Origin: Candidatus Nanopelagicales bacterium
GTDB lineage: Bacteria > Actinomycetota > Actinomycetes > S36-B12 > GCA-2699445
Reading direction: 5' to 3'
NCBI GenBank assembly: GCA_030700225.1
Contig: JAUYJT010000030.1
Coordinates: 453-64,452, forward strand
DNA length: 64,000 nucleotides
Below are positions 3,128 to 12,118 of the stretch, one piece after another. A program made the translations under genes and the position numbers. Every line of letters begins with the position of its first letter. Position 1 is the first letter of the stretch. The notes beneath the pieces are model-generated. The model made no database searches. It was given only the letters and a program-made list of their open reading frames with translations, and was not told where the DNA came from.

Positions 3128-3448
3128 TCAGAGCGGGGAGTCCAGGTCGAGCGCCCGGATCACGGCCGAGCCGACCTCCCGGCTGAGTTCGTGAGCGATC
3201 TCGCCGCGACGGGATCTGAAATGCCCCGCCCGCACAGTCTGCAGGTCGGTGACGTTGATGAAGCTGTCGTCGCAGCCTTCCTCGGGCCCAACCGGGATGT
3301 GAGTCGACGCCGGACCCTCAGTGTGGGTGATCACAGCCACCGTGTACGCCCCGAGCCTGGCCAGCAGAATCTGATTGGTCAGCACCAAGCCCGGATGGCG
3401 GCCGATCCGGGGGAAGTCAATGTCCCATATCTCCCCGCGGTTGATCAC
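3128..3448 (-). CDS. mazF: MazF/PemK family endoribonuclease toxin
   Basis: RGEIW.....IGRHPGLVLTN N-terminus, 106 aa, GTGA overlap with the upstream small ORF. Confidence 0.85.
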   Translation of the reverse strand: MINRGEIWDIDFPRIGRHPGLVLTNQILLARLGAYTVAVITHTEGPASTHIPVGPEEGCDDSFINVTDLQTVRAGHFRSRRGEIAHELSREVGSAVIRALDLDSPL

Positions 3449-3660
3449 GGCGAGATTGAGTTGTCCACGACGGCCCTGGGTCCGTAGAAGTCATCGTATT
3501 CATGCGCTAGGTGGCGCTGGCGGGCTTCATGCTCTAGGAAAGGCAACACGTGCCGGATCGCCTCCGACCGGGTCAAGCCAAGCTCACGGCGTGCCTGATC
3601 GTATCTGTCGGAGTCCGTGCCGAGCCTCGCCTGCCACACGTCATTGGTCTTAGTGCTCAC
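3445..3660 (-). CDS. ribbon-helix-helix-type antitoxin (MazE-like)
   Basis: 71 aa from GTG 3660 with LGLTRSEAIR helix, coupled to the toxin by a GTGA overlap. Confidence 0.7.
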   Translation of the reverse strand: MSTKTNDVWQARLGTDSDRYDQARRELGLTRSEAIRHVLPFLEHEARQRHLAHEYDDFYGPRAVVDNSISP

Positions 3661-3666
3661 CTGTGA

Positions 3667-3672
3667 AGTATA
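3667..3672 (-). promoter_or_regulatory. -10 element TATACT, probable leaderless promoter of the mazEF-like operon
   Basis: TATACT lies 6 nt upstream of GTG 3660 on the minus strand. Confidence 0.55.
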
Positions 3673-3790
3673 CAACGCGAATACAGCAGAGTCCGTGTCA
3701 CCGTGGACCCGCCGGAGTGGTGCCCGCAGAATGCGAGGCAGCCCGCTCGAAAGCACCGTGCGTGGCCCGCCGGGAGGGGGGGAGATCACC

Positions 3791-4741
3791 ATGCCCAATC
3801 CGCACGCCTGTGAGACGCGGTTCGGCCCCTATGCGGTCCGCTGGATCGAAGAACGGCCCGGGCTGCGCCCGCGCACGGTCCAGCTGTACGAATGGACCTA
3901 CCGTCGACATCTCGCCCCATCGTTCGAACATGCGCGTGTTCAGGCGATCAGTCTCGCGATGGTGCGCACTTGGCGGGCTGACTTGATCCGGTCCGGTGTG
4001 TCCGGTTCACTCGCCGCCAAGGCCTACCGACTGCTGCGGGCGATCCTTGGCACCGCCGTCGACGACGATCTGATCGAGCGGAATCCATGCCGGATACGCG
4101 GCGCGGGCGTGGAGTCTCCCAACGAGCGACCGGTGCTGACCACCCAGCAGGTCTTCGCGCTCGCGGACCTCATGCCAGCGCGGCTGCGATGCATGGTGCT
4201 CATCGCCACGTTCGCCAGTCTCCGCTACGGCGAGGTGGCCGCGCTGCGGCGCCGGGACCTGGACTTCGGCGCCGGGACCGTCCGGGTCAGCCGCACTCTG
4301 ACCGAGATCCGCGGCCAGGGGCTGGCATTCGGGCCACCCAAGTCTCGCGCCGGGGTACGCACCGTCTCAGTTCCGAATGTGGTCATGGGTGACCTGGCCG
4401 ACCACCTGCACGCCTACATGGAGGAAGATCCTCAGGCCCTGGTGTTCACCGGCCCCAAGGGCGCGCCCATCCGCCGGGGCAACTTCAACTCCCTTGCCAG
4501 GTGGAAGGAGATCGTGCGGACGATCGGCGCCGAGGGGCTCCACTTCCACGATCTGCGCCACACCGGCAACATGTTGGCAGCGGCCGCCGGCGGGTCGACC
4601 CGGGACCTCATGGCGCGCATGGGGCACAGCTCGATGACCGCCGCCCTGCTCTACCAGCACGCCACAGCCCGGGCGGACCGGCACATCGCCGACCAGCTTG
4701 ACAGCCAGGTGCGGGCCGCGCGGCAACGCGGAGACTCCTAG
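3791..4741 (+). CDS. int: tyrosine recombinase / phage-type integrase
   Basis: Catalytic set LRYGE (R), PK (K), HDLRH, MGH and LLYQH (Y). GGAG-rich RBS before ATG 3791. Confidence 0.9.
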   Translation: MPNPHACETRFGPYAVRWIEERPGLRPRTVQLYEWTYRRHLAPSFEHARVQAISLAMVRTWRADLIRSGVSGSLAAKAYRLLRAILGTAVDDDLIERNPCRIRGAGVESPNERPVLTTQQVFALADLMPARLRCMVLIATFASLRYGEVAALRRRDLDFGAGTVRVSRTLTEIRGQGLAFGPPKSRAGVRTVSVPNVVMGDLADHLHAYMEEDPQALVFTGPKGAPIRRGNFNSLARWKEIVRTIGAEGLHFHDLRHTGNMLAAAAGGSTRDLMARMGHSSMTAALLYQHATARADRHIADQLDSQVRAARQRGDS

Positions 4742-4931
4742 GCCCGGCCAGGCCGACACCAAGCCGGGCGTCCTGACAGCGAACCCAGCTGTCACCGCGC
4801 ACCTTCGCCAGGACTTCCGCACCAGATCCGCCCGCCAAGCCGATCGCGGCGACATGCCGAGCCGGGTGTCCCGCCGCGGTTAGCTCATCCGCCAGCCGCC
4901 TTGAAAGACACTCATCGACGAGGAGCTTCAT
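4608..4931 (-). pseudogene. DUF5615 PIN-like toxin, degenerate after about 45 codons
   Basis: Starts MKLLVDECLSRRLADELTAAGH..HV..IGL.G, then loses the expected D.EV and (T/A)D.DF acidic motifs. The tail runs antisense into the integrase. ATGA overlap with the DUF433 gene. Confidence 0.6.
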
Positions 4932-5155
4932 GCACTGGTTGGGAACGGCAGTTCCCGCGTCTCTACCTCAGCCGCCGCGAACCGCAAGGCCTGCTTGATC
5001 GCTTCCGCGTCAAGCTGGGGAAACTCGGCGAGAATCCCGGCGACGTCCCAGCCGGCGGCGACCATGGAAACGACCGTTGCTACGGGGATCCGGGTACCGG
5101 CGATGCGAGGCCGACCAGCCATGATCGCCTGGTCCACGCGGATTCTGTCGAACAT
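4928..5155 (-). CDS. DUF433 family antitoxin (VapB45-like)
   Basis: DRIRVDQAIMAGRPRIAGTRIPV...ILAEFPQL...IKQAL.FAA. A -10 TACCGT lies 6 nt before ATG 5155, suggesting a leaderless start. Confidence 0.85.
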   Translation of the reverse strand: MFDRIRVDQAIMAGRPRIAGTRIPVATVVSMVAAGWDVAGILAEFPQLDAEAIKQALRFAAAEVETRELPFPTSA

Positions 5156-5289
5156 GCCCACACGGTACTTGGGCAGAACAGGCTTGGGGTAGTCCTATGG
5201 AGCCTCAGCGCTCTGGCCCCAGGTGCCTGGACACCCGCTCAGACTCCCCGAGGATGTCAGGTCGCCTTCACCCCAGCCAGGTGATGCGA

Positions 5290-5332
5290 AGGTGAGTAGC
5301 CGGGGGGAGTTGCACCCCCCGGCTACTCACCT
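5290..5332. repeat. perfect 18-bp inverted repeat with 7-nt loop
   Basis: AGGTGAGTAGCCGGGGGG-AGTTGCA-CCCCCCGGCTACTCACCT. Confidence 0.9.
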
Positions 5333-5485
5333 CTGCACCATCCGGCCGCGAGCACACGCTCAGAATCCGCGCGCGCGAGCCTCGCGCAGAGGTCCGTAGC
5401 CGCCGCAGTGCTAGACAAGCGGCCGGATTGGCAGCGTTCGCCCGCGAATTGCCACTGGCCGCTGGCGCGCTGACGGACATAGCGC

Positions 5486-5514
5486 TTGCCGCTAATAACG
5501 CGTGTCGTTACTAT
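5486..5514 (+). promoter_or_regulatory. sigma70-type promoter of higBA with overlapping operator palindrome
   Basis: TTGCCG-17 bp-TACTAT, 7 nt before GTG 5522. TAACG-N5-CGTTA at 5496-5510. Confidence 0.7.
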
Positions 5515-5521
5515 GGTCACG

Positions 5522-5803
5522 GTGATCAGATCGTTTCGCGACACCGCCACGACGCGAGTCTGGACGCGCCAACACGTGCCCCGGTGGAGTCCGCAGCTCC
5601 AACGCGCTGCTCGCCGGAAGCTCGTACAACTCAACAGCGCCGTGACGATTGAGGACCTGCGGGTTCCTCCAGGCAATCGTCTCGAAGCACTCTCGGGAGC
5701 TAGGGCCGGCCAGCACAGCATCCGGATCAACGACCAATGGCGATTGTGCTTCACATGGACTGAAGGCGGACCTGAGAACGCCGAGATCGTTGACTACCAC
5801 TGA
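5522..5803 (+). CDS. higB: HigB (RelE/ParE superfamily) toxin
   Basis: MIRSFRD...RKLVQLNSA...DLRVPPGNRLEALSG.RAGQHSIRINDQWRLCF.W. Confidence 0.92.
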   Translation: MIRSFRDTATTRVWTRQHVPRWSPQLQRAARRKLVQLNSAVTIEDLRVPPGNRLEALSGARAGQHSIRINDQWRLCFTWTEGGPENAEIVDYH

Positions 5804-5822
5804 ACGGAAAGGAGCGCAGCTG

Positions 5823-6128
5823 ATGAACATGGACCATCTGACGCCGATACATCCCGGCGAGGTCTTGCTCGAGGACTTCCTGGGCCCATTGAGCATGAGC
5901 CAGTACCGGCTTGCCAAGGCGATCGGTGTTCACCCCAGGCGGATCAACGAGATCGTGCATGGCACGCGCGGCATCACGGCCGACACTGCTTTGCGGCTGG
6001 CGCGGTTCTTCGGTACGACCCCACAGTTCTGGATGAACATGCAGGACCAGTACGAACTCGATTCCGAAGAAGATCGGCTTGGTGAGTCGCTGAGCCGCAT
6101 CGAGCCAATGCCGCGGCGCGTCGGCTGA
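5823..6128 (+). CDS. higA: HigA XRE-family antitoxin
   Basis: PIHPGEVLLEDFL.PL.MSQY.LA..IGV...RINEIV.G.R.IT.DTALRL.RFFGT..QFW.N.Q. AAGGAG RBS. Confidence 0.92.
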   Translation: MNMDHLTPIHPGEVLLEDFLGPLSMSQYRLAKAIGVHPRRINEIVHGTRGITADTALRLARFFGTTPQFWMNMQDQYELDSEEDRLGESLSRIEPMPRRVG

Positions 6129-6201
6129 CCGAAGTTCGGCCCTGCGCGGGCGGGTCACAAGAGCCGGGCGTTGACCGCGAATGGTGCGATTCGCGAGGAA
6201 A

Positions 6202-6264
6202 TCAGCCTGGAGCGGGTGACTAAGGGACCCCCAGCTCGCGGGGGAGAATCGAACCCGCACTGTC
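6202..6264 (-). repeat. att-like copy of the tRNA-Gly 3' half, interrupted by a 25-bp insert
   Basis: 6202-6220 equals 9845-9863 (19 bp) and 6246-6264 equals 9866-9884 (19 bp). The 2 bp between the blocks in the tRNA are replaced by 25 bp. Confidence 0.85.
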
Positions 6265-6456
6265 GACTTAGCAAGCGCATGGACGTGCTCGTGGGCCGAG
6301 GGATGGGCGAGGACGGGGCGGACCGCAGCCACCGCTGAATCACCGTGATTGACCGCCGCTTGTGGCACGAGGATCGCGCGCCCACGAGTCCTTAGTGTTG
6401 GGGAAGGACGCGACCACGCAAGAGAGCGTCGGACCGCCCGACCGCTGCGATCTAGG

Positions 6457-6497
6457 GGGTACTCTGTCTTTACCTACTAGGTAAAGCCAGAGTACCC
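6457..6497. promoter_or_regulatory. 41-bp near-perfect palindrome upstream of a TA operon (probable operator)
   Basis: GGGTACTCTG-T-CTTTACCTA-C-TAGGTAAAG-C-CAGAGTACCC; 19 of 20 pairs. Confidence 0.7.
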
Positions 6498-6556
6498 TGG
6501 ACAGACCGGGGAGCAGGAGGGTCACGTGAGCCGCGAGGAACGGGGAAGCTTCTGCG

Positions 6557-6901
6557 ATGGACGTCTACTTCCAGACCAAAAGGCTAGCGGACCTGTGCAA
6601 CGACGGAAGGAAGCTGACCAGGAAGTACGGGAAGCGGGTGGCTGAGACGACAGAGGCCCGACTCCAGCAGTTGGAGGCAGTGAGATCACTGGAGGAGCTC
6701 CGCGCCCTGCCTGGTAGATGGCATGAGCTGAGCGCCAACCTCGCTGGCATGTGGGCGGCCGACGTCGCTGGCAAACGAGACAGGCTTCGACTAATTGTGC
6801 GGGAGGAGTCAAGAACAGATACCGACAATGCTGGCCAAGACAATGACCCCGCTGCCTTGGTGGTGGCACTTTCGGATCATTACGACGACCTAGGGAGGTG
6901 A
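6557..6901 (+). CDS. HigB/RelE-like toxin (killer-suppression type)
   Basis: MDVYFQTKRLADLCND.RKL.RKYG...A.....RLQQLEA..SLEEL..LPGRWHEL...LAG.WA.D. Confidence 0.78.
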   Translation: MDVYFQTKRLADLCNDGRKLTRKYGKRVAETTEARLQQLEAVRSLEELRALPGRWHELSANLAGMWAADVAGKRDRLRLIVREESRTDTDNAGQDNDPAALVVALSDHYDDLGR

Positions 6902-6903
6902 CG

Positions 6904-7989
6904 ATGTACAAGTATCGACCGGAGAATGCAGTTCCCGCAGGTAGAGACATCCGCGATTGGGCCGAAGAACACGGCCTACGCCAGGGTGACCTAGCCGCAC
7001 GTCTTGGCCTGTCCGAGAAGGGTCTGTCACAGATTGTTACCGGCAAGGCACCGTTGTCGCGCGCGACGGCTCAGCGCCTTGGACTAGTGACGGGGATTTC
7101 CGCCAGTTACTGGAACAGGCGGGAGCTGGTATATCGAGAACACCTTGATCGCCTCGGCACTCCGAGCTTGGACGCGGAACAGGCAGACTGGGTCGCTTGC
7201 TTCGACACAAATGAACTGAAGAAGCATGGGGCTATCACAGCGACCGGACGTGACAAGCCGTTGCAGTGTCGAGAACTGCTGAGTTTCTTCGCGGTTGCCT
7301 CCCCTGCGGCGTGGGAACGGGTGTGGCAGAAGCCTCAAGCGGCCTTCAGGCGCTCGAGAAGGCTGCAAGCGACCCCCCATATGGCCAGCGCCTGGCTGCG
7401 CTTCGGCGAACGCGAGATCACGACGTGGCCTAGCTTCTACTCCCAGCATGACCTAGAGAGGAGTCTTGAGAGACTGCGCCAGCTGACACGGGAACCAGAC
7501 CCGAAGGCAGCCGCCCGCGCTCTCCACTCTCACTTGTGGGAAGCCGGGGTCTCGCTGGTCTTTGTCCCAGCATTTCGCCGTGTGCCGATCGCCGCAGCCA
7601 CACGCTGGTTCAATGGTCGCCCAGTGATCCAGATGTCGGATAGACATAAGACCGATGACCACTTCTGGTTCTCCTTCTTCCATGAGGTGGGGCACGTTCT
7701 TGAGAGTCCGACGATTGACACATTGGAGGGGACGGAATCCATAGAGATTGAGCGGCAAGCCGACGCTTTCGCCGCACAAGTGCTGATACCGGGTGCACTT
7801 CCAAGGCTCCGAAGACTGTCCGACATCGAAGAGTACGCAGAAGGAGTTGGAGTCAGTGCAGGCATCGCCGTGGGACGGCTTCAACATGAGGGAAAGATCC
7901 GCCGCGACGTGGGTAATCGGCTGAAGAGCAAGGTGTCGGACCTCGTTCGAGAGCTGACCGTGCTGCAGAGGGTTGCCGCCCAGCCTTGA
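6904..7989 (+). CDS. XRE/HigA-type HTH fused to an ImmA/IrrE Zn-metallopeptidase
   Basis: N-terminal GLRQGDLA.RLGLSEK.LSQIV.GK HTH and C-terminal FFHEVGH (HExxH) with E..ADAFA. GGAGG RBS. Confidence 0.88.
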   Translation: MYKYRPENAVPAGRDIRDWAEEHGLRQGDLAARLGLSEKGLSQIVTGKAPLSRATAQRLGLVTGISASYWNRRELVYREHLDRLGTPSLDAEQADWVACFDTNELKKHGAITATGRDKPLQCRELLSFFAVASPAAWERVWQKPQAAFRRSRRLQATPHMASAWLRFGEREITTWPSFYSQHDLERSLERLRQLTREPDPKAAARALHSHLWEAGVSLVFVPAFRRVPIAAATRWFNGRPVIQMSDRHKTDDHFWFSFFHEVGHVLESPTIDTLEGTESIEIERQADAFAAQVLIPGALPRLRRLSDIEEYAEGVGVSAGIAVGRLQHEGKIRRDVGNRLKSKVSDLVRELTVLQRVAAQP

Positions 7990-7994
7990 GCCGT

Positions 7995-8029
7995 CGGCGA
8001 CGTGCGGAGCGTCAGCGAAGCATCTCGCC
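7995..8029 (+). repeat. imperfect 35-bp direct repeat, partner at 8496-8530
   Basis: CGGCGACGTGCGGAGCG is identical at 7995-8011 and 8496-8512; the next 18 bp match at 13 positions. Confidence 0.75.
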
Positions 8030-8461
8030 TTAGGCCGAAGTTACGTGGGGTTGGGCGGGTGTTTCCCCTAGTGGGGCGGGGTTTTCCGGTTTTTCGTGGG
8101 GGTGGGTTCTGGCTACTTTCCCAGTACGAGGGGGATGGGTTGGCCGAGCAGGGCGAAGGCCCGCCGTTGGGTGGGGGTGGGGATGGCCAGGAGATCGAAT
8201 CCGGTGGTGTTGTTCCCGGCGATGCGTATGTGGTTTTGGGTCAGGGTCGCCAGGTGGGCCAGCAGGCCGTTGAAGCTTTGGGCGGGCAGGCCGTCGCCGG
8301 TGGTTTTGGTCGCGGCTTTGCGGTCGGCCGCCTCGGAGCGGCGCGCCGGGGCGACGGGGTTGTCGGGCTGGGGCCGGTGTTCGTCGGTGGGGCCACTTCA
8401 AGCTGGCATTCCCACCCCACTAGGGGAAACACCCGCCCAACCCCAGGTAACTTCGGTTTAG
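8030..8461 (-). mobile_element. internally deleted IS1634-like element (MITE-like remnant)
   Basis: 46-bp inverted repeats at 8035-8080 and 8411-8456 with 2 mismatches. Minus strand 8385-8113 reads DEHRPQPDNPVAPARRSEAADRKAATKTTGDGLPAQSFNGLLAHLATLTQNHIR...PTPTQRRAFALLG, which I recognise as an actinobacterial IS1634 transposase C-terminus. Confidence 0.7.
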
Positions 8462-8608
8462 AGCTAACGCGACTGGCTCGGACAGGCCAGGCTTACGGCG
8501 ACGTGCGGAGCGAAAGCCAAGCACCGCGCCGGAGGTCCGGCAGCGGCGGCGAAGCCGCCGCCTTGATCTTGTATAGGTCAATCCGGAAGTGTCAGTCCAA
8601 GAAGGGGG

Positions 8609-9565
8609 TCACGAGTCGCTATCCGGCCAGAGTTCCCGCCATCCAGATGGGAAGCCCATGGCTTCGTACGACACGGGACCTCCGACGGGAAACTGCGCCA
8701 AGAGGTCGATCATGCTGAGCTCCCAGTCAGGATTCCGTTCGATCGGTCGCAGCAGATGACGAAGGGCCAGGAGTGGCGCGTAGATCCGTGACTGGCCGTG
8801 CACAACGGCGCCGGAAGCAACGAGATGGTCAAAGTCTCGATCATCGCCCCTTGGAGGCACCGCTGGGCGACGATCCATATTGCGGTTCCAAAGCCGGGCG
8901 TGGTGGGCACACACGTTGCGTACATACGTCAGACAATGGAGCCATGAGGCTACAGTGCCTGGTTTGCTGATTCCGAAGCGACGAGCGATCTGCTCTCGAT
9001 CCGAGTACGTCAATCCGCCGTAGAGCCGCGACAGCCGGGCCAGGCTCATGAGCTCCACGGCCATCCATATCGGCAACCCGCCGTCATACTTGCGTCTGAA
9101 GTGCTGAACGAACTCCTCTTTCGACTGTTTGACGTCGCCAAGATACTTGATGTGCCAGTCGTCGTAGGCACCTCCAGCCACCTGCCGACGGGTGAAAGAC
9201 CGGTCCAGGCTGCTCCGGTGTAGATGCCCGTACCTATCCCGCTTCCCCAAGGTGTAGGCCACGCTGAACCGAAACCCGATCTCCATTCGTTCGATCGCGT
9301 CCATCACGGTGAGCTTCAACCGTCGGTCGAAGTCGTAGAGCGCCAGAACCTGGCTTTGGTGCGTTCCTTCCCGGAAGGTGTCCTCCACGACTCCACCAGA
9401 GCTGGTCCGAAACGGGTAGGTGTACCCAGTCAACCGGTAGTAGCCGATGGCCTGGATAGCGTGCGCGAGTTGCTCACGATCCTCGACTACCAAGCCGCGA
9501 GATTCGAGTCGTTCGATCTGCTGCTCTACGGACGTCCACTCCTTCTCGTAGACGACTCTGGTCAT
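8609..9565 (-). CDS. Abi family protein (Abi_2 / AbiD-AbiF-like HEPN RNase)
   Basis: SVEQQIERLESRGL, IGYYRLTGY, LY.FDRRL, LPIWMAVE.MS and the HEPN motif RNVCAH followed by RLWNR. Confidence 0.9.
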   Translation of the reverse strand: MTRVVYEKEWTSVEQQIERLESRGLVVEDREQLAHAIQAIGYYRLTGYTYPFRTSSGGVVEDTFREGTHQSQVLALYDFDRRLKLTVMDAIERMEIGFRFSVAYTLGKRDRYGHLHRSSLDRSFTRRQVAGGAYDDWHIKYLGDVKQSKEEFVQHFRRKYDGGLPIWMAVELMSLARLSRLYGGLTYSDREQIARRFGISKPGTVASWLHCLTYVRNVCAHHARLWNRNMDRRPAVPPRGDDRDFDHLVASGAVVHGQSRIYAPLLALRHLLRPIERNPDWELSMIDLLAQFPVGGPVSYEAMGFPSGWRELWPDSDS

Positions 9566-9574
9566 CGGGCCCCC

Positions 9575-9627
9575 TCACAAGAAAGCCGACCCTTACATCC
9601 GAGGATGCAGCGGGGCCGGGCTTGTTG
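9575..9627 (-). ncRNA. structured leader RNA upstream of the Abi gene (abiF-motif-like candidate)
   Basis: Minus strand AACAAGCCCGGCCCCGC-TGCATCCTCGGATGTA-AGGGTCGGCTTTCTTGTG folds as nested stems with G-U pairs that work on this strand. A -10 TACGCT at 9638-9633 places the start at the stem base. Confidence 0.5.
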
Positions 9628-9699
9628 CTATCAGCGTACCGCGGACACCCGACACGTCTCCAGGCAACACGGGAGGTGAGCCGGTCACTGTGAGCGGGG

Positions 9700-9819
9700 T
9701 CGCCCGCATCGCTCCGCGACTCGATCAATGCCGCGCTGATCAACCAGCACGCGCCCGCCCCGGCCGACCGTCGCATCGCCGACCAGTTGGACGCCCACGT
9801 GCGGGATCAGCGTCAGTAA
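9700..9819 (+). pseudogene. 3' remnant of a second tyrosine integrase
   Basis: 9721-9819 reads SINAALINQHAPAPADRRIADQLDAHVRDQRQ* versus SMTAALLYQHATARADRHIADQLDSQVRAARQR in the intact integrase. Lies about 30 bp from the tRNA 3' end. Confidence 0.8.
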
Positions 9820-9850
9820 CGGCGGGCCTGATTCACCAGGGAAGTCAGCC

Positions 9851-9924
9851 TGGAGCGGGTGACGGGAATCGAACCCGCACTGTCAGCTTGGGAAGCTGAT
9901 GTTCTGCCATTGAACTACACCCGC
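9851..9924 (-). tRNA. tRNA-Gly(CCC)
   Basis: GCGGGTGTAGTTCAATGGCAGAACATCAGCTTCCCAAGCTGACAGTGCGGGTTCGATTCCCGTCACCCGCTCCA: cloverleaf, CCC anticodon, encoded CCA. Confidence 0.97.
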
Positions 9925-9955
9925 GCGACGGCGCCCCCCGCGCCGCGGCTCAGCG

Positions 9956-12118
9956 TCAGCTGTACGTGCCCCCGGACTCGGCGAGCTCGACCAGCGACCG
10001 GGGCGGGGCGAACCTGGCGCCGTAGCGGGTAGCGAGCTCACGCGACCGCTCCACGAATCCGGCCGCACCGCCGACGTAGCCGTTGACGTACTGAAGCACG
10101 CCGCCGCTCCACGGAGGGAACCCGATGCCGAAGATGGACCCGATGTTGGCCTCGGCGACGCTGCGCAGAACGCCCTCGTCGCGGCACTTGATCGTCTCCA
10201 GCGCCTCGATGAACAGCATCCGCTCCTGCATGTCGATGAACGGGATCGTCTGCGCGCCCGCGTACACATCAACGAGCCCTGACCAAAGCCCCTGCCGGGC
10301 TCCCTCGACGTAGTCGTAGAAGCCAGCACCGGCGGCCCGGCCACCGCGTCCGAATTCGATGACCATCTGGTCGATCACGGGGAACGAGGGGTGATCGGGG
10401 AAGTCCACCCCCGCGTCCGCCGCGGCCTTGCTGGCTTCCATGCGGATGCTGCGCGCCAGGGTCAAGCTGACCTCATCGAGCAGAGCCAGGGGCCCCGTCG
10501 GGTAGCCAGCCTGCAGCGCGGCCTGTTCGATCGACGGCGCCGCCAGGCCCTCACCGAGCATCGCGGCGGCCTCGCCCAGGAACGTACCGATGACGCGACT
10601 GGTGAAGAACCCTCGGCTGTCGTTGACAACGATCGGTGTCTTCTTGATCTGCAAGGCGATGTCGATGGCCTTGGCGATCGTGGCGTCGGAGGTCTTCTCA
10701 CCGGCGATGATCTCCAGAAGCGGCATCTTGTCGACAGGGGAGAAGAAGTGCATCCCGATGAAGTCGGCCGGACGGCTGACCGCGCCCGCGAGCCCGGAGA
10801 TCGGCAAAGTGGACGTGTTGGACCCCAGGACCGCGTCCTCGGCCAGCACGGGCTCGATCTCGGCGTAGACCTTCCTCTTCAGGTCCGCGTCCTCGAATAC
10901 CGCCTCGATGAGCAGGTCGGCGCCCTTGGCGTCCTGCGGGTTGTCGGTCGCCACGATCCTGTCCAGGATCTGCGAACGTTGGTCCTGGGTCATCCGCCCG
11001 CGCGAGACGGCTTTGTCCAGGAGCTTGCGGCTGTAGTCCTTGCCCTTCTCGGCGGCTTCGAGGCTGACGTCTTTGAGGACGGCCTCGATGCCGTTGCGGG
11101 CGCACACGTACGCGATGCCGGCGCCCATCATGCCGGCGCCGATGATGGCGACCTTCGATGCGCGATGCTTGGGGATGCCAGCTGGGCGCAGGCCGCCCTT
11201 GGTGATGTGCTGCAGGTCGAAGAAGAACGCCTGGATCATGTTCTTGGACACCTGGCCGGTCGCCAGGTCCGCGAAGTACTGGGTCTCGATCTTCTGCGCG
11301 GTGCCGAAGTCAACCTGTGCGCCCTCAACCGCCGCGGCCATGATGTGGTGCGGAGCGGGCATCGGCGCGCCCTTGATCTGCTTGCGCAGGTTCGCCGGGA
11401 AAGCCGGCAGGACCGCCGCGAGCTTCGGGTTGGACGGAGTGCCGCCGGGGATCTTGTAACCCTTGACGTCCCAAGGCTGAGCCGCCTCGGGGTTGGCCTT
11501 GATCCACGCCTTGGCCGCGTTGAGCATCTCCTCGGGCGTCTCGACGAGTTCGTCGACGACTCCGACTTCGAGCGCCTGGGCGGGCTTGCGCCGCTGCCCT
11601 TGCAGGAGCACCTCCATCAGCGCCTTCTGCAGGCCGAACATCCGCACTGTGCGCGCGACTCCGCCGCCGCCTGGGAGCAGGCCCAGCGTGACTTCCGGCA
11701 GCCCGATCTCGCTGCCCTTGGTGTTCAACGCGACGCGGTGATGACAGGCCAGCGCGATCTCCAGTCCGCCGCCGAGGGCGGCGCCGTTGACCGCGGCGAC
11801 GACCGGGCGGCCCAGCGTCTCCAGGCGGCGCAGGTAGGACTTCAGGACATCGACGCCTTCTTCGAGGGCGGCGGCGTCCGCGGGTGTGGCCTGGATGAGC
11901 AGATGCAGGTCCCCGCCAGCGAAGAACGTCTTCTTCGCGCTGGTCAGGATCACGCCCGTGATCGACTCGCGTTCAGCCTCGAGCCTGGCCACCGTGGCGG
12001 CGAGGCTCGAAGTGAACGTGGCGTTCATCGTGTTGGCGCCCTGATCCGGGTCGTCCATGGTCAAGGTGACGATGCCGTCGGAATCTTGTTCCCACCGGAT
12101 CATGTTCTTCTCGGTCAT
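9956..12118 (-). CDS. fadB: fatty acid oxidation complex alpha subunit (enoyl-CoA hydratase / 3-hydroxyacyl-CoA dehydrogenase)
   Basis: Crotonase domain (GAALGGGLE, GLPEVTLGLLPG) plus GAGMMG, NTSTLPI and GMHFFSPVDKMPLLE. Confidence 0.93.
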   Translation of the reverse strand: MTEKNMIRWEQDSDGIVTLTMDDPDQGANTMNATFTSSLAATVARLEAERESITGVILTSAKKTFFAGGDLHLLIQATPADAAALEEGVDVLKSYLRRLETLGRPVVAAVNGAALGGGLEIALACHHRVALNTKGSEIGLPEVTLGLLPGGGGVARTVRMFGLQKALMEVLLQGQRRKPAQALEVGVVDELVETPEEMLNAAKAWIKANPEAAQPWDVKGYKIPGGTPSNPKLAAVLPAFPANLRKQIKGAPMPAPHHIMAAAVEGAQVDFGTAQKIETQYFADLATGQVSKNMIQAFFFDLQHITKGGLRPAGIPKHRASKVAIIGAGMMGAGIAYVCARNGIEAVLKDVSLEAAEKGKDYSRKLLDKAVSRGRMTQDQRSQILDRIVATDNPQDAKGADLLIEAVFEDADLKRKVYAEIEPVLAEDAVLGSNTSTLPISGLAGAVSRPADFIGMHFFSPVDKMPLLEIIAGEKTSDATIAKAIDIALQIKKTPIVVNDSRGFFTSRVIGTFLGEAAAMLGEGLAAPSIEQAALQAGYPTGPLALLDEVSLTLARSIRMEASKAAADAGVDFPDHPSFPVIDQMVIEFGRGGRAAGAGFYDYVEGARQGLWSGLVDVYAGAQTIPFIDMQERMLFIEALETIKCRDEGVLRSVAEANIGSIFGIGFPPWSGGVLQYVNGYVGGAAGFVERSRELATRYGARFAPPRSLVELAESGGTYS

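What the first reader, a model, noticed from the sequence alone, without database searches (positions are those of the whole stretch)
8609..9640. AbiF-type HEPN RNase with a candidate cognate structured RNA
The Abi_2 gene has an intact RNVCAH HEPN motif. A -10 TACGCT would start transcription at the base of a roughly 50-nt nested hairpin that ends just before the RBS, and its G-U pairs favour the sense strand. A conserved abiF RNA motif upstream of such genes is known, and AbiF plus ncRNA has been described as an RNA-antitoxin system related to Cas13 ancestry. This may be a high-GC actinobacterial member with a divergent RNA.
Basis: partly seen in the sequence, partly recalled or inferred. Interest (0 to 1): 0.72.

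Follow-up and report, generated by a model that had tools for sequence, protein, structure and literature searches.

The report
AbiF toxin with variant hairpin RNA partner
This is a phage-defence RNA-cutting toxin gene (AbiD/F family) preceded by a small, conserved hairpin RNA that most likely keeps it switched off; the toxin-plus-RNA system has been known since 2025, but this RNA shape is not in the catalogue and also turns up alone in phage genomes.

Summary
Window 8609-9565 (-) encodes a 318-aa Abi_2/AbiD/F HEPN protein. It aligns over its full length with PbAbiF (PDB 8VZ6, E 7.7e-35), its model superposes on that structure (TM 0.79-0.84), and the RNVCAH motif is intact.

A TACGCT -10 box lies six bases upstream of a 51-nt hairpin RNA (9626-9576). 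The hairpin ends in a U-rich tail directly upstream of the RBS.

Rfam abiF (RF03085) does not match it even at E<=10. The same hairpin architecture nevertheless precedes Abi_2 genes in Actinomycetota, Pseudomonadota, Verrucomicrobiota and Bacteroidota. Covariation is strong: 95% of cells are paired, 0 of 500 shuffles reach the observed score, and one stem position shows five pair types. A 20-nt pattern of the 5' half alone retrieved 64 further complete hairpins, and their free base always paired with the predicted partner.

In other loci related RNAs are separate convergent genes with their own promoter and terminator. RNA type also tracks the protein clade. Orphan copies sit in phage capsid, portal and terminase regions.

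The most likely mechanism is a type III-like RNA antitoxin that doubles as a leaky terminator. Expression and toxicity are untested.

Verdict: a new structural variant of a known kind, of moderate interest.

The parts
9633..9638 (-). -10 box TACGCT (TAnnnT type), 6 nt upstream of the first A of AACA; the -35 element is weak
   Evidence: Read directly. In 86 distinct related loci a TAnnnT box ends 6-8 nt before AACA, and many also have TTGAC at a 17-nt spacing.
9576..9626 (-). Type-A AbiF-associated hairpin RNA (candidate antitoxin, AbiFr-like): AACAAG, lower stem, CGC internal loop, upper hairpin, A bulge, lower stem, UUUCUUGUG tail
   Evidence: Model R1 scores it 56.6 bits, E 1e-12, and it is the only hit in the whole genome. 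It folds to -24 kcal/mol, z -3.81. It is 94% identical to L001, against 75% for the CDS and 47-50% for the flanks.
9613..9621 (-). 5' strand of the 9-bp lower stem (GCCCGGCCC)
   Evidence: Alignment columns 7-15 of A3 pair with columns 40-48. In that helix 98% of cells are paired and 5 of 9 pairs show double changes.
9584..9592 (-). 3' strand of the lower stem (GGGUCGGCU)
9594..9609 (-). Upper hairpin UGCAUC-CUCG-GAUGUA. Its length varies among relatives. It is flanked by the conserved unpaired C-G/U-C (9612-9610) and A9593.
9569..9575 (-). Ribosome-binding site GAGGGGG, 3 nt before the ATG
   Evidence: Read directly.
8609..9565 (-). abiD/F-family gene (Abi_2, HEPN RNase toxin), 318 aa
8900..8920 (-). 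HEPN catalytic motif R216-N-V-C-A-H221-H222
   Evidence: In the alignment R216 and H221 fall on the R and first H of PbAbiF's RNSCCHH stretch. PbAbiF R210/H215 are the residues whose double mutant is inactive (10.1101/2025.04.15.648962). Equating the two pairs is my inference.
8543..8562 (.). GC-rich palindrome GCGGCGGCGAAGCCGCCGC, about 47 nt after the stop codon; probable terminator
9851..9924 (-). tRNA-Gly(CCC), the island's integration target
9720..9805 (+). Remnant of an integrase 3' end, 79% identical to 4630-4715
   Evidence: family D1
6197..6281 (-). Partial copy of the tRNA-Gly 3' part plus 11 nt (att-like direct repeat). With the tRNA it brackets a ~3.6-kb segment that holds the Abi module.
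   Evidence: families D3, D5

Best explanation
The locus is a two-component AbiD/F system: a HEPN RNase toxin and its cognate small RNA.

Transcription probably starts at or next to A9626, 7 nt after the TACGCT box. The first ~50 nt fold into a two-tier hairpin: a 9-bp lower stem, a 3-nt 5' internal loop, a 1-nt 3' bulge and a variable upper hairpin. The hairpin ends in a U-rich tract.

I infer that most transcripts stop or are processed there. That would give an excess of the hairpin RNA. Read-through would give the abi mRNA, whose RBS begins immediately 3' of the tail.

By analogy with PbAbiF-AbiFr and AbiFCd-RCd22, the RNA would bind the AbiF dimer and occlude the HEPN site, acting as a type III antitoxin. 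When phage infection stops host transcription or destroys the labile RNA, the freed RNase would cut RNA and abort the infection.

Shown here:
- the protein's family, fold and catalytic motif;
- the RNA's conservation, covariation, strand and specific linkage to Abi_2 genes.

Inferred:
- transcription start and stop;
- toxicity, RNA binding and antitoxin action.
For: Protein. Pfam Abi_2 matches at E 1.6e-51. The protein aligns over its full length with 8VZ6 at E 7.7e-35. The AF2 model has pLDDT 91.5, and 8vz6_A is its only PDB match at E<=0.001, with TM 0.79/0.84.

RNA conservation. The hairpin is 94% identical between the window and L001, while the CDS is 75% and the flanks are 47-50% identical. 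The same architecture precedes homologues of only 35-51% protein identity.

Covariation. A MAFFT alignment of 25 sequences gives 95% paired cells, 37 double-change cells against 9.9 in shuffles (0/500), and only 26-50% pairing when partners are slid. RNAalifold predicts the same structure. Columns 11-44 show GC 10, AU 8, CG 4, UG 2, UA 1.

Out-of-sample test. A pattern of the 5' half alone found 74 loci. Of these, 64 have the full hairpin, and the free N pairs with its predicted partner in every distinct sequence.

Strand. G-U pairs dominate columns 7-48 (16/25) and 8-47 (13/25).

Linkage to the protein.
- About 40 of the pattern hits have an Abi_2 ORF starting 57-90 nt after the start of the motif.
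- An RNA-first search of 401 genomes hit two, both directly upstream of Abi_2 genes.
- RNA type clusters with protein clade: 14 changes against 50.6 in shuffles, 0/200.

Evidence for action in trans. In many loci the related RNA is a separate convergent gene with its own TTGACA-N17-TAnAAT promoter and GGGGUUUUUU terminator.

Literature. The AbiF ncRNA blocks the HEPN site and neutralises the toxin (PMC13064643; PMC12737573; 10.1101/2025.04.15.648962).
Against: There are no expression data: only three groundwater DNA runs hold the stretch.

The Rfam abiF model does not match. My model finds nothing in the PbAbiF locus.

By my own numbering of the PbAbiF locus, the inhibitory nucleotides C32 and U38 of PbAbiFr (PMC12737573) fall in the motif's 6-nt 3' internal loop. 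This variant has no such loop. The inhibition mode therefore cannot simply be transferred.

The window's -35 element is weak and its U-tract is interrupted (UUUCUUGUG). The window copy also has a C-C mismatch or bulge in the lower stem.
Confidence: 0.75

Rival explanations
1. The hairpin is only a cis-acting leader: an intrinsic terminator, attenuator or mRNA stabiliser that sets abi expression. It does not bind or neutralise the protein.
For: The hairpin is followed by a U-rich tract in nearly all loci. It sits between the promoter and the RBS. RCd22 also lowers abiF transcription (10.1101/2025.04.15.648962).
Against: A plain terminator does not need the conserved unpaired nucleotides (C-U-C, A/C) or the conserved AACAY 5' end. 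Related RNAs are separate convergent genes in other loci. RNA type tracks the protein clade. Orphan copies persist next to decayed abi genes and in phages.
Confidence: 0.12
2. The RNA binds AbiF but acts as a sensor, activator or guide-like cofactor rather than as an inhibitor.
For: AbiF is regarded as the ancestor of RNA-guided Cas13 (PMC12737573). This variant lacks a 6-nt 3' internal loop like that of the canonical motif, where by my own numbering the inhibitory nucleotides of PbAbiFr lie.
Against: Both studied AbiF RNAs are antitoxins (PMC13064643). The variable upper hairpin is paired, not a free spacer-like segment.
Confidence: 0.08
3. The inverted repeat is a DNA operator for a repressor, for example the neighbouring HTH protein.
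For: It overlaps the promoter-proximal region, and an HTH-M78 protein is encoded nearby.
Against: G-U pairs at two stem positions in most sequences would be A-C mismatches in a DNA palindrome. The structure is asymmetric, and compensatory changes keep pairing rather than sequence. The neighbouring HTH gene is absent from most related loci.
Confidence: 0.03
4. It is a chance GC-rich hairpin with no function.
For: The 86-nt stretch has z -1.08.
Confidence: 0.01

Closest known systems
PbAbiF-AbiFr (Prevotellaceae bacterium; PDB 8VZ6; Zilberzwige-Tal et al., Cell 2025, as cited in PMC12737573 and PMC13064643)
   Same: The protein is a full-length homologue (E 7.7e-35; TM 0.79-0.84; R-x4-H motif aligned). 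A small structured RNA lies promoter-proximal, on the same strand, just upstream of the start codon and ends in a U-rich tail.
   Different: PbAbiFr is a canonical RF03085 motif (58.5 bits, L166:1063-1099). It has a 6-bp stem, an A bulge, a 3-bp stem, an 11-nt loop and a 6-nt 3' internal loop. The window's RNA has a 9-bp stem, a 3-nt 5' internal loop, a 1-nt 3' bulge and an extra upper hairpin. Neither model finds the other's RNA. The proteins are only about 25% identical.
AbiFCd-RCd22 of Clostridioides difficile prophage phi027 / phage phiC2 (10.1101/2025.04.15.648962)
   Same: An Abi_2 toxin with an upstream ncRNA. In that system the RNA lowers abiF expression, is followed by a terminator with read-through, and neutralises the toxin in cis and in trans.
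   Different: RCd22 carries two canonical abiF motifs plus a separate terminator. The Rfam model detected one of them in phiC2 (37.6 bits). The window has one non-canonical hairpin whose own stem plus U-tail would be the terminator. The context is a tRNA-Gly island, not a phage lysis module.
Rfam abiF RNA motif RF03085
   Same: It associates with Abi_2 genes. Both share a GCC(C)CUCU element in the 5' half, an AAC-type 5' lead and a U-rich 3' tail.
   Different: There is no match at E<=10 in 111 nt or in 7 kb. None of the type-A loci searched matched the family. The secondary structure differs.
ToxIN / other type III toxin-antitoxin systems, and phage pseudo-ToxI mimicry
   Same: An RNA antitoxin gene precedes the toxin gene, and a terminator sets the RNA:toxin ratio. 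Phage-borne copies of the antitoxin RNA are a possible escape route.
   Different: The toxin fold is unrelated (HEPN, not ToxN/AbiQ). The RNA is a single hairpin, not a tandem repeat array processed into units.

Membership tests
Abi_2 / AbiD/F HEPN proteins (Pfam PF07751) | Abi_2 domain above Pfam's gathering score | tested here: met
   175.6 bits against 25.6, covering profile positions 2-184 of 184. PADLOC AbiD E 1.4e-64.
Abi_2 / AbiD/F HEPN proteins (Pfam PF07751) | HEPN R-x4-6-H catalytic motif | tested here: met
   RNVCAHH at residues 216-222. R216, N217, H221 and H222 are invariant in 25 homologues. The motif aligns with RNSCCHH of 8VZ6.
Abi_2 / AbiD/F HEPN proteins (Pfam PF07751) | Fold of PbAbiF | tested here: met
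   The AF2 model has pLDDT 91.5. Foldseek gives 8vz6_A at E 4e-14, TM 0.79/0.84, and no other hit at E<=0.001.
Abi_2 / AbiD/F HEPN proteins (Pfam PF07751) | RNase activity and toxicity | not testable with these tools
   Needs expression and assay.
Rfam abiF RNA (RF03085) | Score at or above the gathering threshold of 37 bits | tested here: not met
   No hit at E<=10 in window 5000-12000 or 9550-9660, and none in the genome. Positive controls rang: L060 46.5, L084 43.8, phiC2 37.6, PbAbiF locus 58.5 bits.
Rfam abiF RNA (RF03085) | Consensus structure: 6-bp stem, A bulge, 3-bp stem, 11-nt loop, 6-nt 3' internal loop | tested here: not met
   The window RNA has a 9-bp stem, a 3-nt 5' loop, a 6-bp upper hairpin with a tetraloop and a 1-nt 3' bulge.
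Rfam abiF RNA (RF03085) | Lies next to an Abi_2 gene | tested here: met
   It ends 10 nt before the ATG.
AbiF-AbiFr type III toxin-antitoxin / abortive infection system | HEPN toxin gene stably linked to a conserved structured ncRNA | tested here: met
AbiF-AbiFr type III toxin-antitoxin / abortive infection system | The RNA is transcribed and accumulates | not testable with these tools
   No RNA runs hold this stretch. Only the conserved -10 spacing and U-tail are seen.
AbiF-AbiFr type III toxin-antitoxin / abortive infection system | The RNA binds the toxin and neutralises it | not testable with these tools
   Inferred from PbAbiF and AbiFCd (PMC13064643).
AbiF-AbiFr type III toxin-antitoxin / abortive infection system | Protects against phage | not testable with these tools
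   The host is an uncultured groundwater actinobacterium. The nearest named record is a Ca. Nanopelagicales MAG.

The most novel reading that the evidence does not exclude
Type-A hairpins could be a second, structurally distinct class of AbiF antitoxin RNA. They would inhibit the HEPN site through the conserved 5' C-U-C internal loop rather than through a 3' bulge as in PbAbiFr. T7-like and other phages would carry orphan copies of exactly this RNA in their late structural operons as molecular mimics that disarm AbiF during infection. This would be a natural RNA anti-defence aimed at the ancestor of Cas13.
Probability: 0.3. Interest if true: 0.7.

Novelty: new variant of a known kind. Interest (0 to 1): 0.5.

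Why it matters
AbiF plus its RNA is the proposed ancestor of Cas13 plus crRNA, yet only the canonical abiF motif has been studied.

This locus belongs to a large protein clade, separated from the canonical-motif clade by a 99/98 branch. Its partner RNA has been remodelled into several shapes (called A, B and D here). The partner RNA has also moved between an upstream-sense position and a convergent downstream position.

That gives a natural series for asking how a HEPN nuclease and its RNA co-evolve. It also gives a covariance model that can annotate RNAs Rfam currently misses.

The phage-borne orphan copies, if they neutralise AbiF, would be a directly testable RNA-mimicry counter-defence.

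Tried and rejected
- **Rfam.** Four cmscan runs gave no family for the window RNA. The other hits were microRNA-type noise.
- **Single-sequence folding.** Only the trimmed RNA is.
- **RNA-seq.** No RNA runs exist, only three DNA runs from groundwater metagenomes, so start and stop could not be observed.
- **L002.** This MAG's protein is 96% identical, but the gene runs off the contig start, so it has no upstream region.
- **Window-specific variant in phages.** The pattern GGCCCCGCTGY-N12-RYAAGGG gave four matches in viral contigs, all chance and none with a stem.
- **Class-wide RNA search.** The motif is rare: 2 of 401 genomes. This gives little power. The stricter filters used for more than 40 genomes may also miss copies.
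- **Earlier scan notes by sequence.** Nothing was found.
- **PbAbiF in the tree.** I gave the wrong start coordinate, so it dropped out. Its RNA type was settled directly instead.
- **Third-codon-position identity.** The comparison was ungapped and is not valid. I discarded it.

Full report
**What is there**

The minus strand of window 8609-9565 holds a 318-aa ORF. It matches Pfam Abi_2 at 175.6 bits against a cut-off of 25.6 and the PADLOC AbiD model at E 1.4e-64.

The protein aligns from residue 3 to 311 with PDB 8VZ6 at E 7.7e-35. Foldseek and a review name that entry as PbAbiF bound to its ncRNA (PMC12737573). An AlphaFold2 model with mean pLDDT 91.5 has 8vz6_A as its only PDB match at E<=0.001, with TM 0.79/0.84.

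The HEPN motif RNVCAHH (residues 216-222, nt 8920-8900) aligns with RNSCCHH of PbAbiF. R216, N217, H221 and H222 are invariant in 25 homologues.

Upstream, read 5' to 3' on the minus strand:
- TACGCT at 9638-9633, then six bases;
- AACAAG from 9626;
- a lower stem pairing 9621-9613 with 9592-9584;
- unpaired CGC (9612-9610) and A9593;
- an upper hairpin at 9609-9594;
- a UUUCUUGUG tail ending at 9576;
- GAGGGGG at 9575-9569;
- ATG at 9565.

The sense strand folds better than the antisense strand (-33.9 against -23.5 kcal/mol).

**Is it more than chance?**

The 86-nt stretch alone is unremarkable (z -1.08). The 51-nt RNA delimited by comparison is remarkable (z -3.81, 0 of 200 shuffles).

The decisive evidence is comparative. 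The closest homologue is L001, at 81% protein identity. Its hairpin is 94% identical to the window's. Its CDS is 75% identical, and the 100 nt on either side are 47-50% identical.

Homologues at 45-51% protein identity (L003, L004, L006, L008) carry the same element. It runs: a -10-like box, about 7 nt, AACAY, GGCCnGCCC, C-U-C, a variable hairpin, A or C, GGGnCGGYY, and a U-rich tail. Among 80 Abi_2 loci from species genomes, 22 more carry it upstream of the gene. They come from Actinomycetota, Alpha- and Gammaproteobacteria, Verrucomicrobiota and Bacteroidota.

**Structure**

I made a plain MAFFT alignment of 25 such sequences (A3) and counted pairs against the proposed structure.
- 95% of cells form standard pairs.
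- 37 cells have changes on both sides, against 9.9 in shuffles (0 of 500 reach this).
- Pairing falls to 26-50% when partners are slid by 1-3 columns.
- Columns 11-44 show GC 10, AU 8, CG 4, UG 2 and UA 1, with no broken pair.

RNAalifold independently gives the same helices. G-U is the commonest pair at two stem positions (16 and 13 of 25). This fixes the strand as that of the abi gene and argues against a DNA palindrome.

As an out-of-sample test I searched metagenome and viral contigs for a 20-nt pattern of the 5' half only, AACAYGGCCNGCCCCTCTGC. This returned 74 loci. Of these, 64 carry the complete hairpin. In every distinct sequence the unconstrained N pairs with the predicted partner base.

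**Relation to the known abiF RNA**

Rfam RF03085 does not match the window at E<=10, whether I searched 7 kb or 111 nt. It does match other Abi_2 leaders in my set and both experimentally studied systems:
- L060 at 46.5 bits and L084 at 43.8 bits;
- phage phiC2, the RCd22 system, at 37.6 bits;
- the PbAbiF locus at 58.5 bits, 18 nt before the ATG.

The Rfam consensus is CCCGCC-A-AGC-CUCUCAACGAU-GCU-CAAAUC-GGCGGG. That is a 6-bp stem, an A bulge, a 3-bp stem, an 11-nt loop and a 6-nt 3' internal loop.

The window's RNA shares the GCC(C)CUCU element, the AAC-type 5' lead and the U-rich tail. It differs in having a continuous 9-bp stem, its internal loop on the 5' side and an extra upper hairpin. 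My model R1, built from A3, scores the window at 56.6 bits. It finds nothing in the PbAbiF locus. So this is not a member of RF03085. It is a distinct structural variant at the same genetic position.

A review places the inhibitory nucleotides of PbAbiFr, C32 and U38, in a single-stranded bulge (PMC12737573). By my own numbering of L166, both fall in the 6-nt 3' internal loop. The window's RNA has no equivalent loop. The mode of inhibition therefore cannot simply be transferred. This is an inference.

**Is it a partner RNA or only a leader?**

Four observations favour a partner RNA.

1. Convergent RNA genes. Many loci lack an upstream motif because the abi gene follows hsdS of a type I restriction system. 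In these, R1 hits the opposite strand just after the abi stop codon. Each hit has its own TTGACA-N17-TAnAAT promoter, an AACACGGCC start and a GGGGUUUUUU terminator. Five of them have the type-A architecture itself (28-40 bits).
2. Co-diversification. RNA type follows the protein tree: 14 label changes against 50.6 in shuffles, 0 of 200 as low. A 99/98 branch separates canonical-motif proteins from all the others. The window and L001 sit in an all-type-A clade.
3. RNA-first searches find the protein. About 40 of the pattern hits have an Abi_2 ORF beginning 57-90 nt after the start of the motif. An R1 scan of 401 genomes of the class hit only two genomes, both directly upstream of Abi_2 genes.
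4. Survival without the toxin. The hairpin sits next to decayed Abi_2 N-termini in L094 and L134, with no Abi_2 match in the sequence held.

These points fit published work. Upstream sequences in the AbiD/F group are more conserved than the genes, and the ncRNA blocks the HEPN site (PMC13064643; 10.1101/2025.04.15.648962).

**Mechanism proposed**

A constitutive promoter fires at about 9626. The hairpin plus U-tract stops, or allows processing of, most transcripts. That gives excess antitoxin RNA. Read-through gives the toxin mRNA. No second promoter fits in the 10 nt before the ATG, so every toxin mRNA is born with its antidote at the 5' end.

The RNA holds the AbiF dimer inactive. Loss of RNA supply during phage infection frees the RNase.

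All of this beyond the anatomy is inference. Only DNA runs from groundwater metagenomes hold this sequence.

**Context**

The module lies beside tRNA-Gly(CCC) at 9851-9924. An 86-nt remnant of an integrase 3' end lies at 9720-9805. A partial copy of the tRNA 3' part lies at 6197-6281. Together with the tRNA, this copy brackets about 3.6 kb.

Further along are:
- a small ORF plus an HTH-M78 protein resembling PD-Lambda-2_B;
- HigB/HigA;
- a PIN-like gene;
- an intact integrase;
- a PemK toxin.

A related MAG contig, whose partial protein is 96% identical, has different genes after the abi gene. This looks like an island hot-spot with variable cargo.

**Phage copies**

All five viral contigs and several metagenome contigs carry bona fide type-A hairpins (R1 42-62 bits) with no Abi_2 gene in the sequence held. 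They sit:
- before T7-like major capsid genes (L161, L164, L159);
- before an SPP1-type portal gene (L113);
- before a small-terminase-like gene (L163).

A phage hairpin that inhibits AbiF has been reported for the sk1 cos site, although it does not resemble the ncRNA (PMC13064643). True copies of the partner RNA in phage late operons suggest mimicry. I did not test this.

**Verdict**

The system as a kind has been known since 2025. The RNA is a variant that Rfam does not contain. Notes from this scan show that uncatalogued AbiF hairpins recur, so I score the interest as moderate.

Noticed in passing
L020, L037, L039, L042, L050, L055, L057, L070, L073, L086 and others, about 10-90 nt after the abi stop, opposite strand: Abi_2 genes placed behind hsdS (type I restriction) have no upstream RNA. 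Instead a convergent ~60-nt sRNA gene lies downstream, with its own TTGACA-N17-TAnAAT promoter, an AACACGGCCCC start and a GGGGUUUUUUAUUG terminator. It is a further structural type of the AbiF-linked RNA.
   Followed up: partly
L161:1446-1495, L164:1964-2013, L162:3280-3328, L163:3692-3737, L165/L115, L113:3154-3210, L159:151-196: Orphan type-A hairpins (R1 42-62 bits) lie in phage contigs with no Abi_2 gene in the sequence held. They sit just before T7-like major capsid, SPP1-type portal and small-terminase-like genes. They are candidate phage-borne antitoxin mimics.
   Followed up: partly
L014:1311-1357 and 1430-1478: Kribbella antiqua has two tandem type-A hairpins upstream of its Abi_2 gene (44.5 and 58.5 bits). 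This recalls the two abiF motifs of RCd22.
   Followed up: no
L094 (motif at 10107-10157, minus) and L134 (1038-1089, minus): An intact hairpin is followed by a decayed Abi_2 N-terminus (MSAYSKPYLTF...stop; MFAYQKPHL...stop). The RNA appears to outlive the toxin gene.
   Followed up: no
L135 and L141: A type-A hairpin with its own TTGAC...TACACT promoter is followed within about 100 nt by what looks by eye like a tRNA gene rather than an Abi_2 gene.
   Followed up: no
L167:1417-1483: A Prevotella ruminicola MAG has a canonical abiF motif with a 36-nt insertion in the apical loop. This shows where an extra hairpin like that of type A could have arisen.
   Followed up: no
window 6197-6281 and 9720-9805: A partial copy of the tRNA-Gly 3' part and a remnant of an integrase 3' end (79% identical to 4630-4715) point to successive integrations at tRNA-Gly.
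   Followed up: partly
window 6557-7989 (+): A 114-aa ORF with no family match overlaps the start of an HTH_3 + Peptidase_M78 (ImmA/IrrE-like) protein that matches PADLOC PD-Lambda-2_B (E 1.6e-23). This may be a second defence or toxin-antitoxin module in the same island.
   Followed up: partly
window 5273-5349: A long, nearly perfect inverted repeat (GGUGAGUAGCCGGGGGG...CCCCCCGGCUACUCACC) drew weak microRNA-model hits. Its function is unknown. It lies between a PIN-like gene and higB.
   Followed up: no
window 7995-8034 and 8496-8535: A 40-nt direct repeat (83% identical) brackets about 460 nt of apparently non-coding sequence between the HTH-M78 gene and the abi terminator.
   Followed up: no
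window 3128-3798, 4608-4931, 5486-6128: Several type II toxin-antitoxin-like genes are clustered here: a PemK toxin with an upstream partner ORF, a DUF5615/PIN-like gene, and HigB with an HTH antitoxin.
   Followed up: partly
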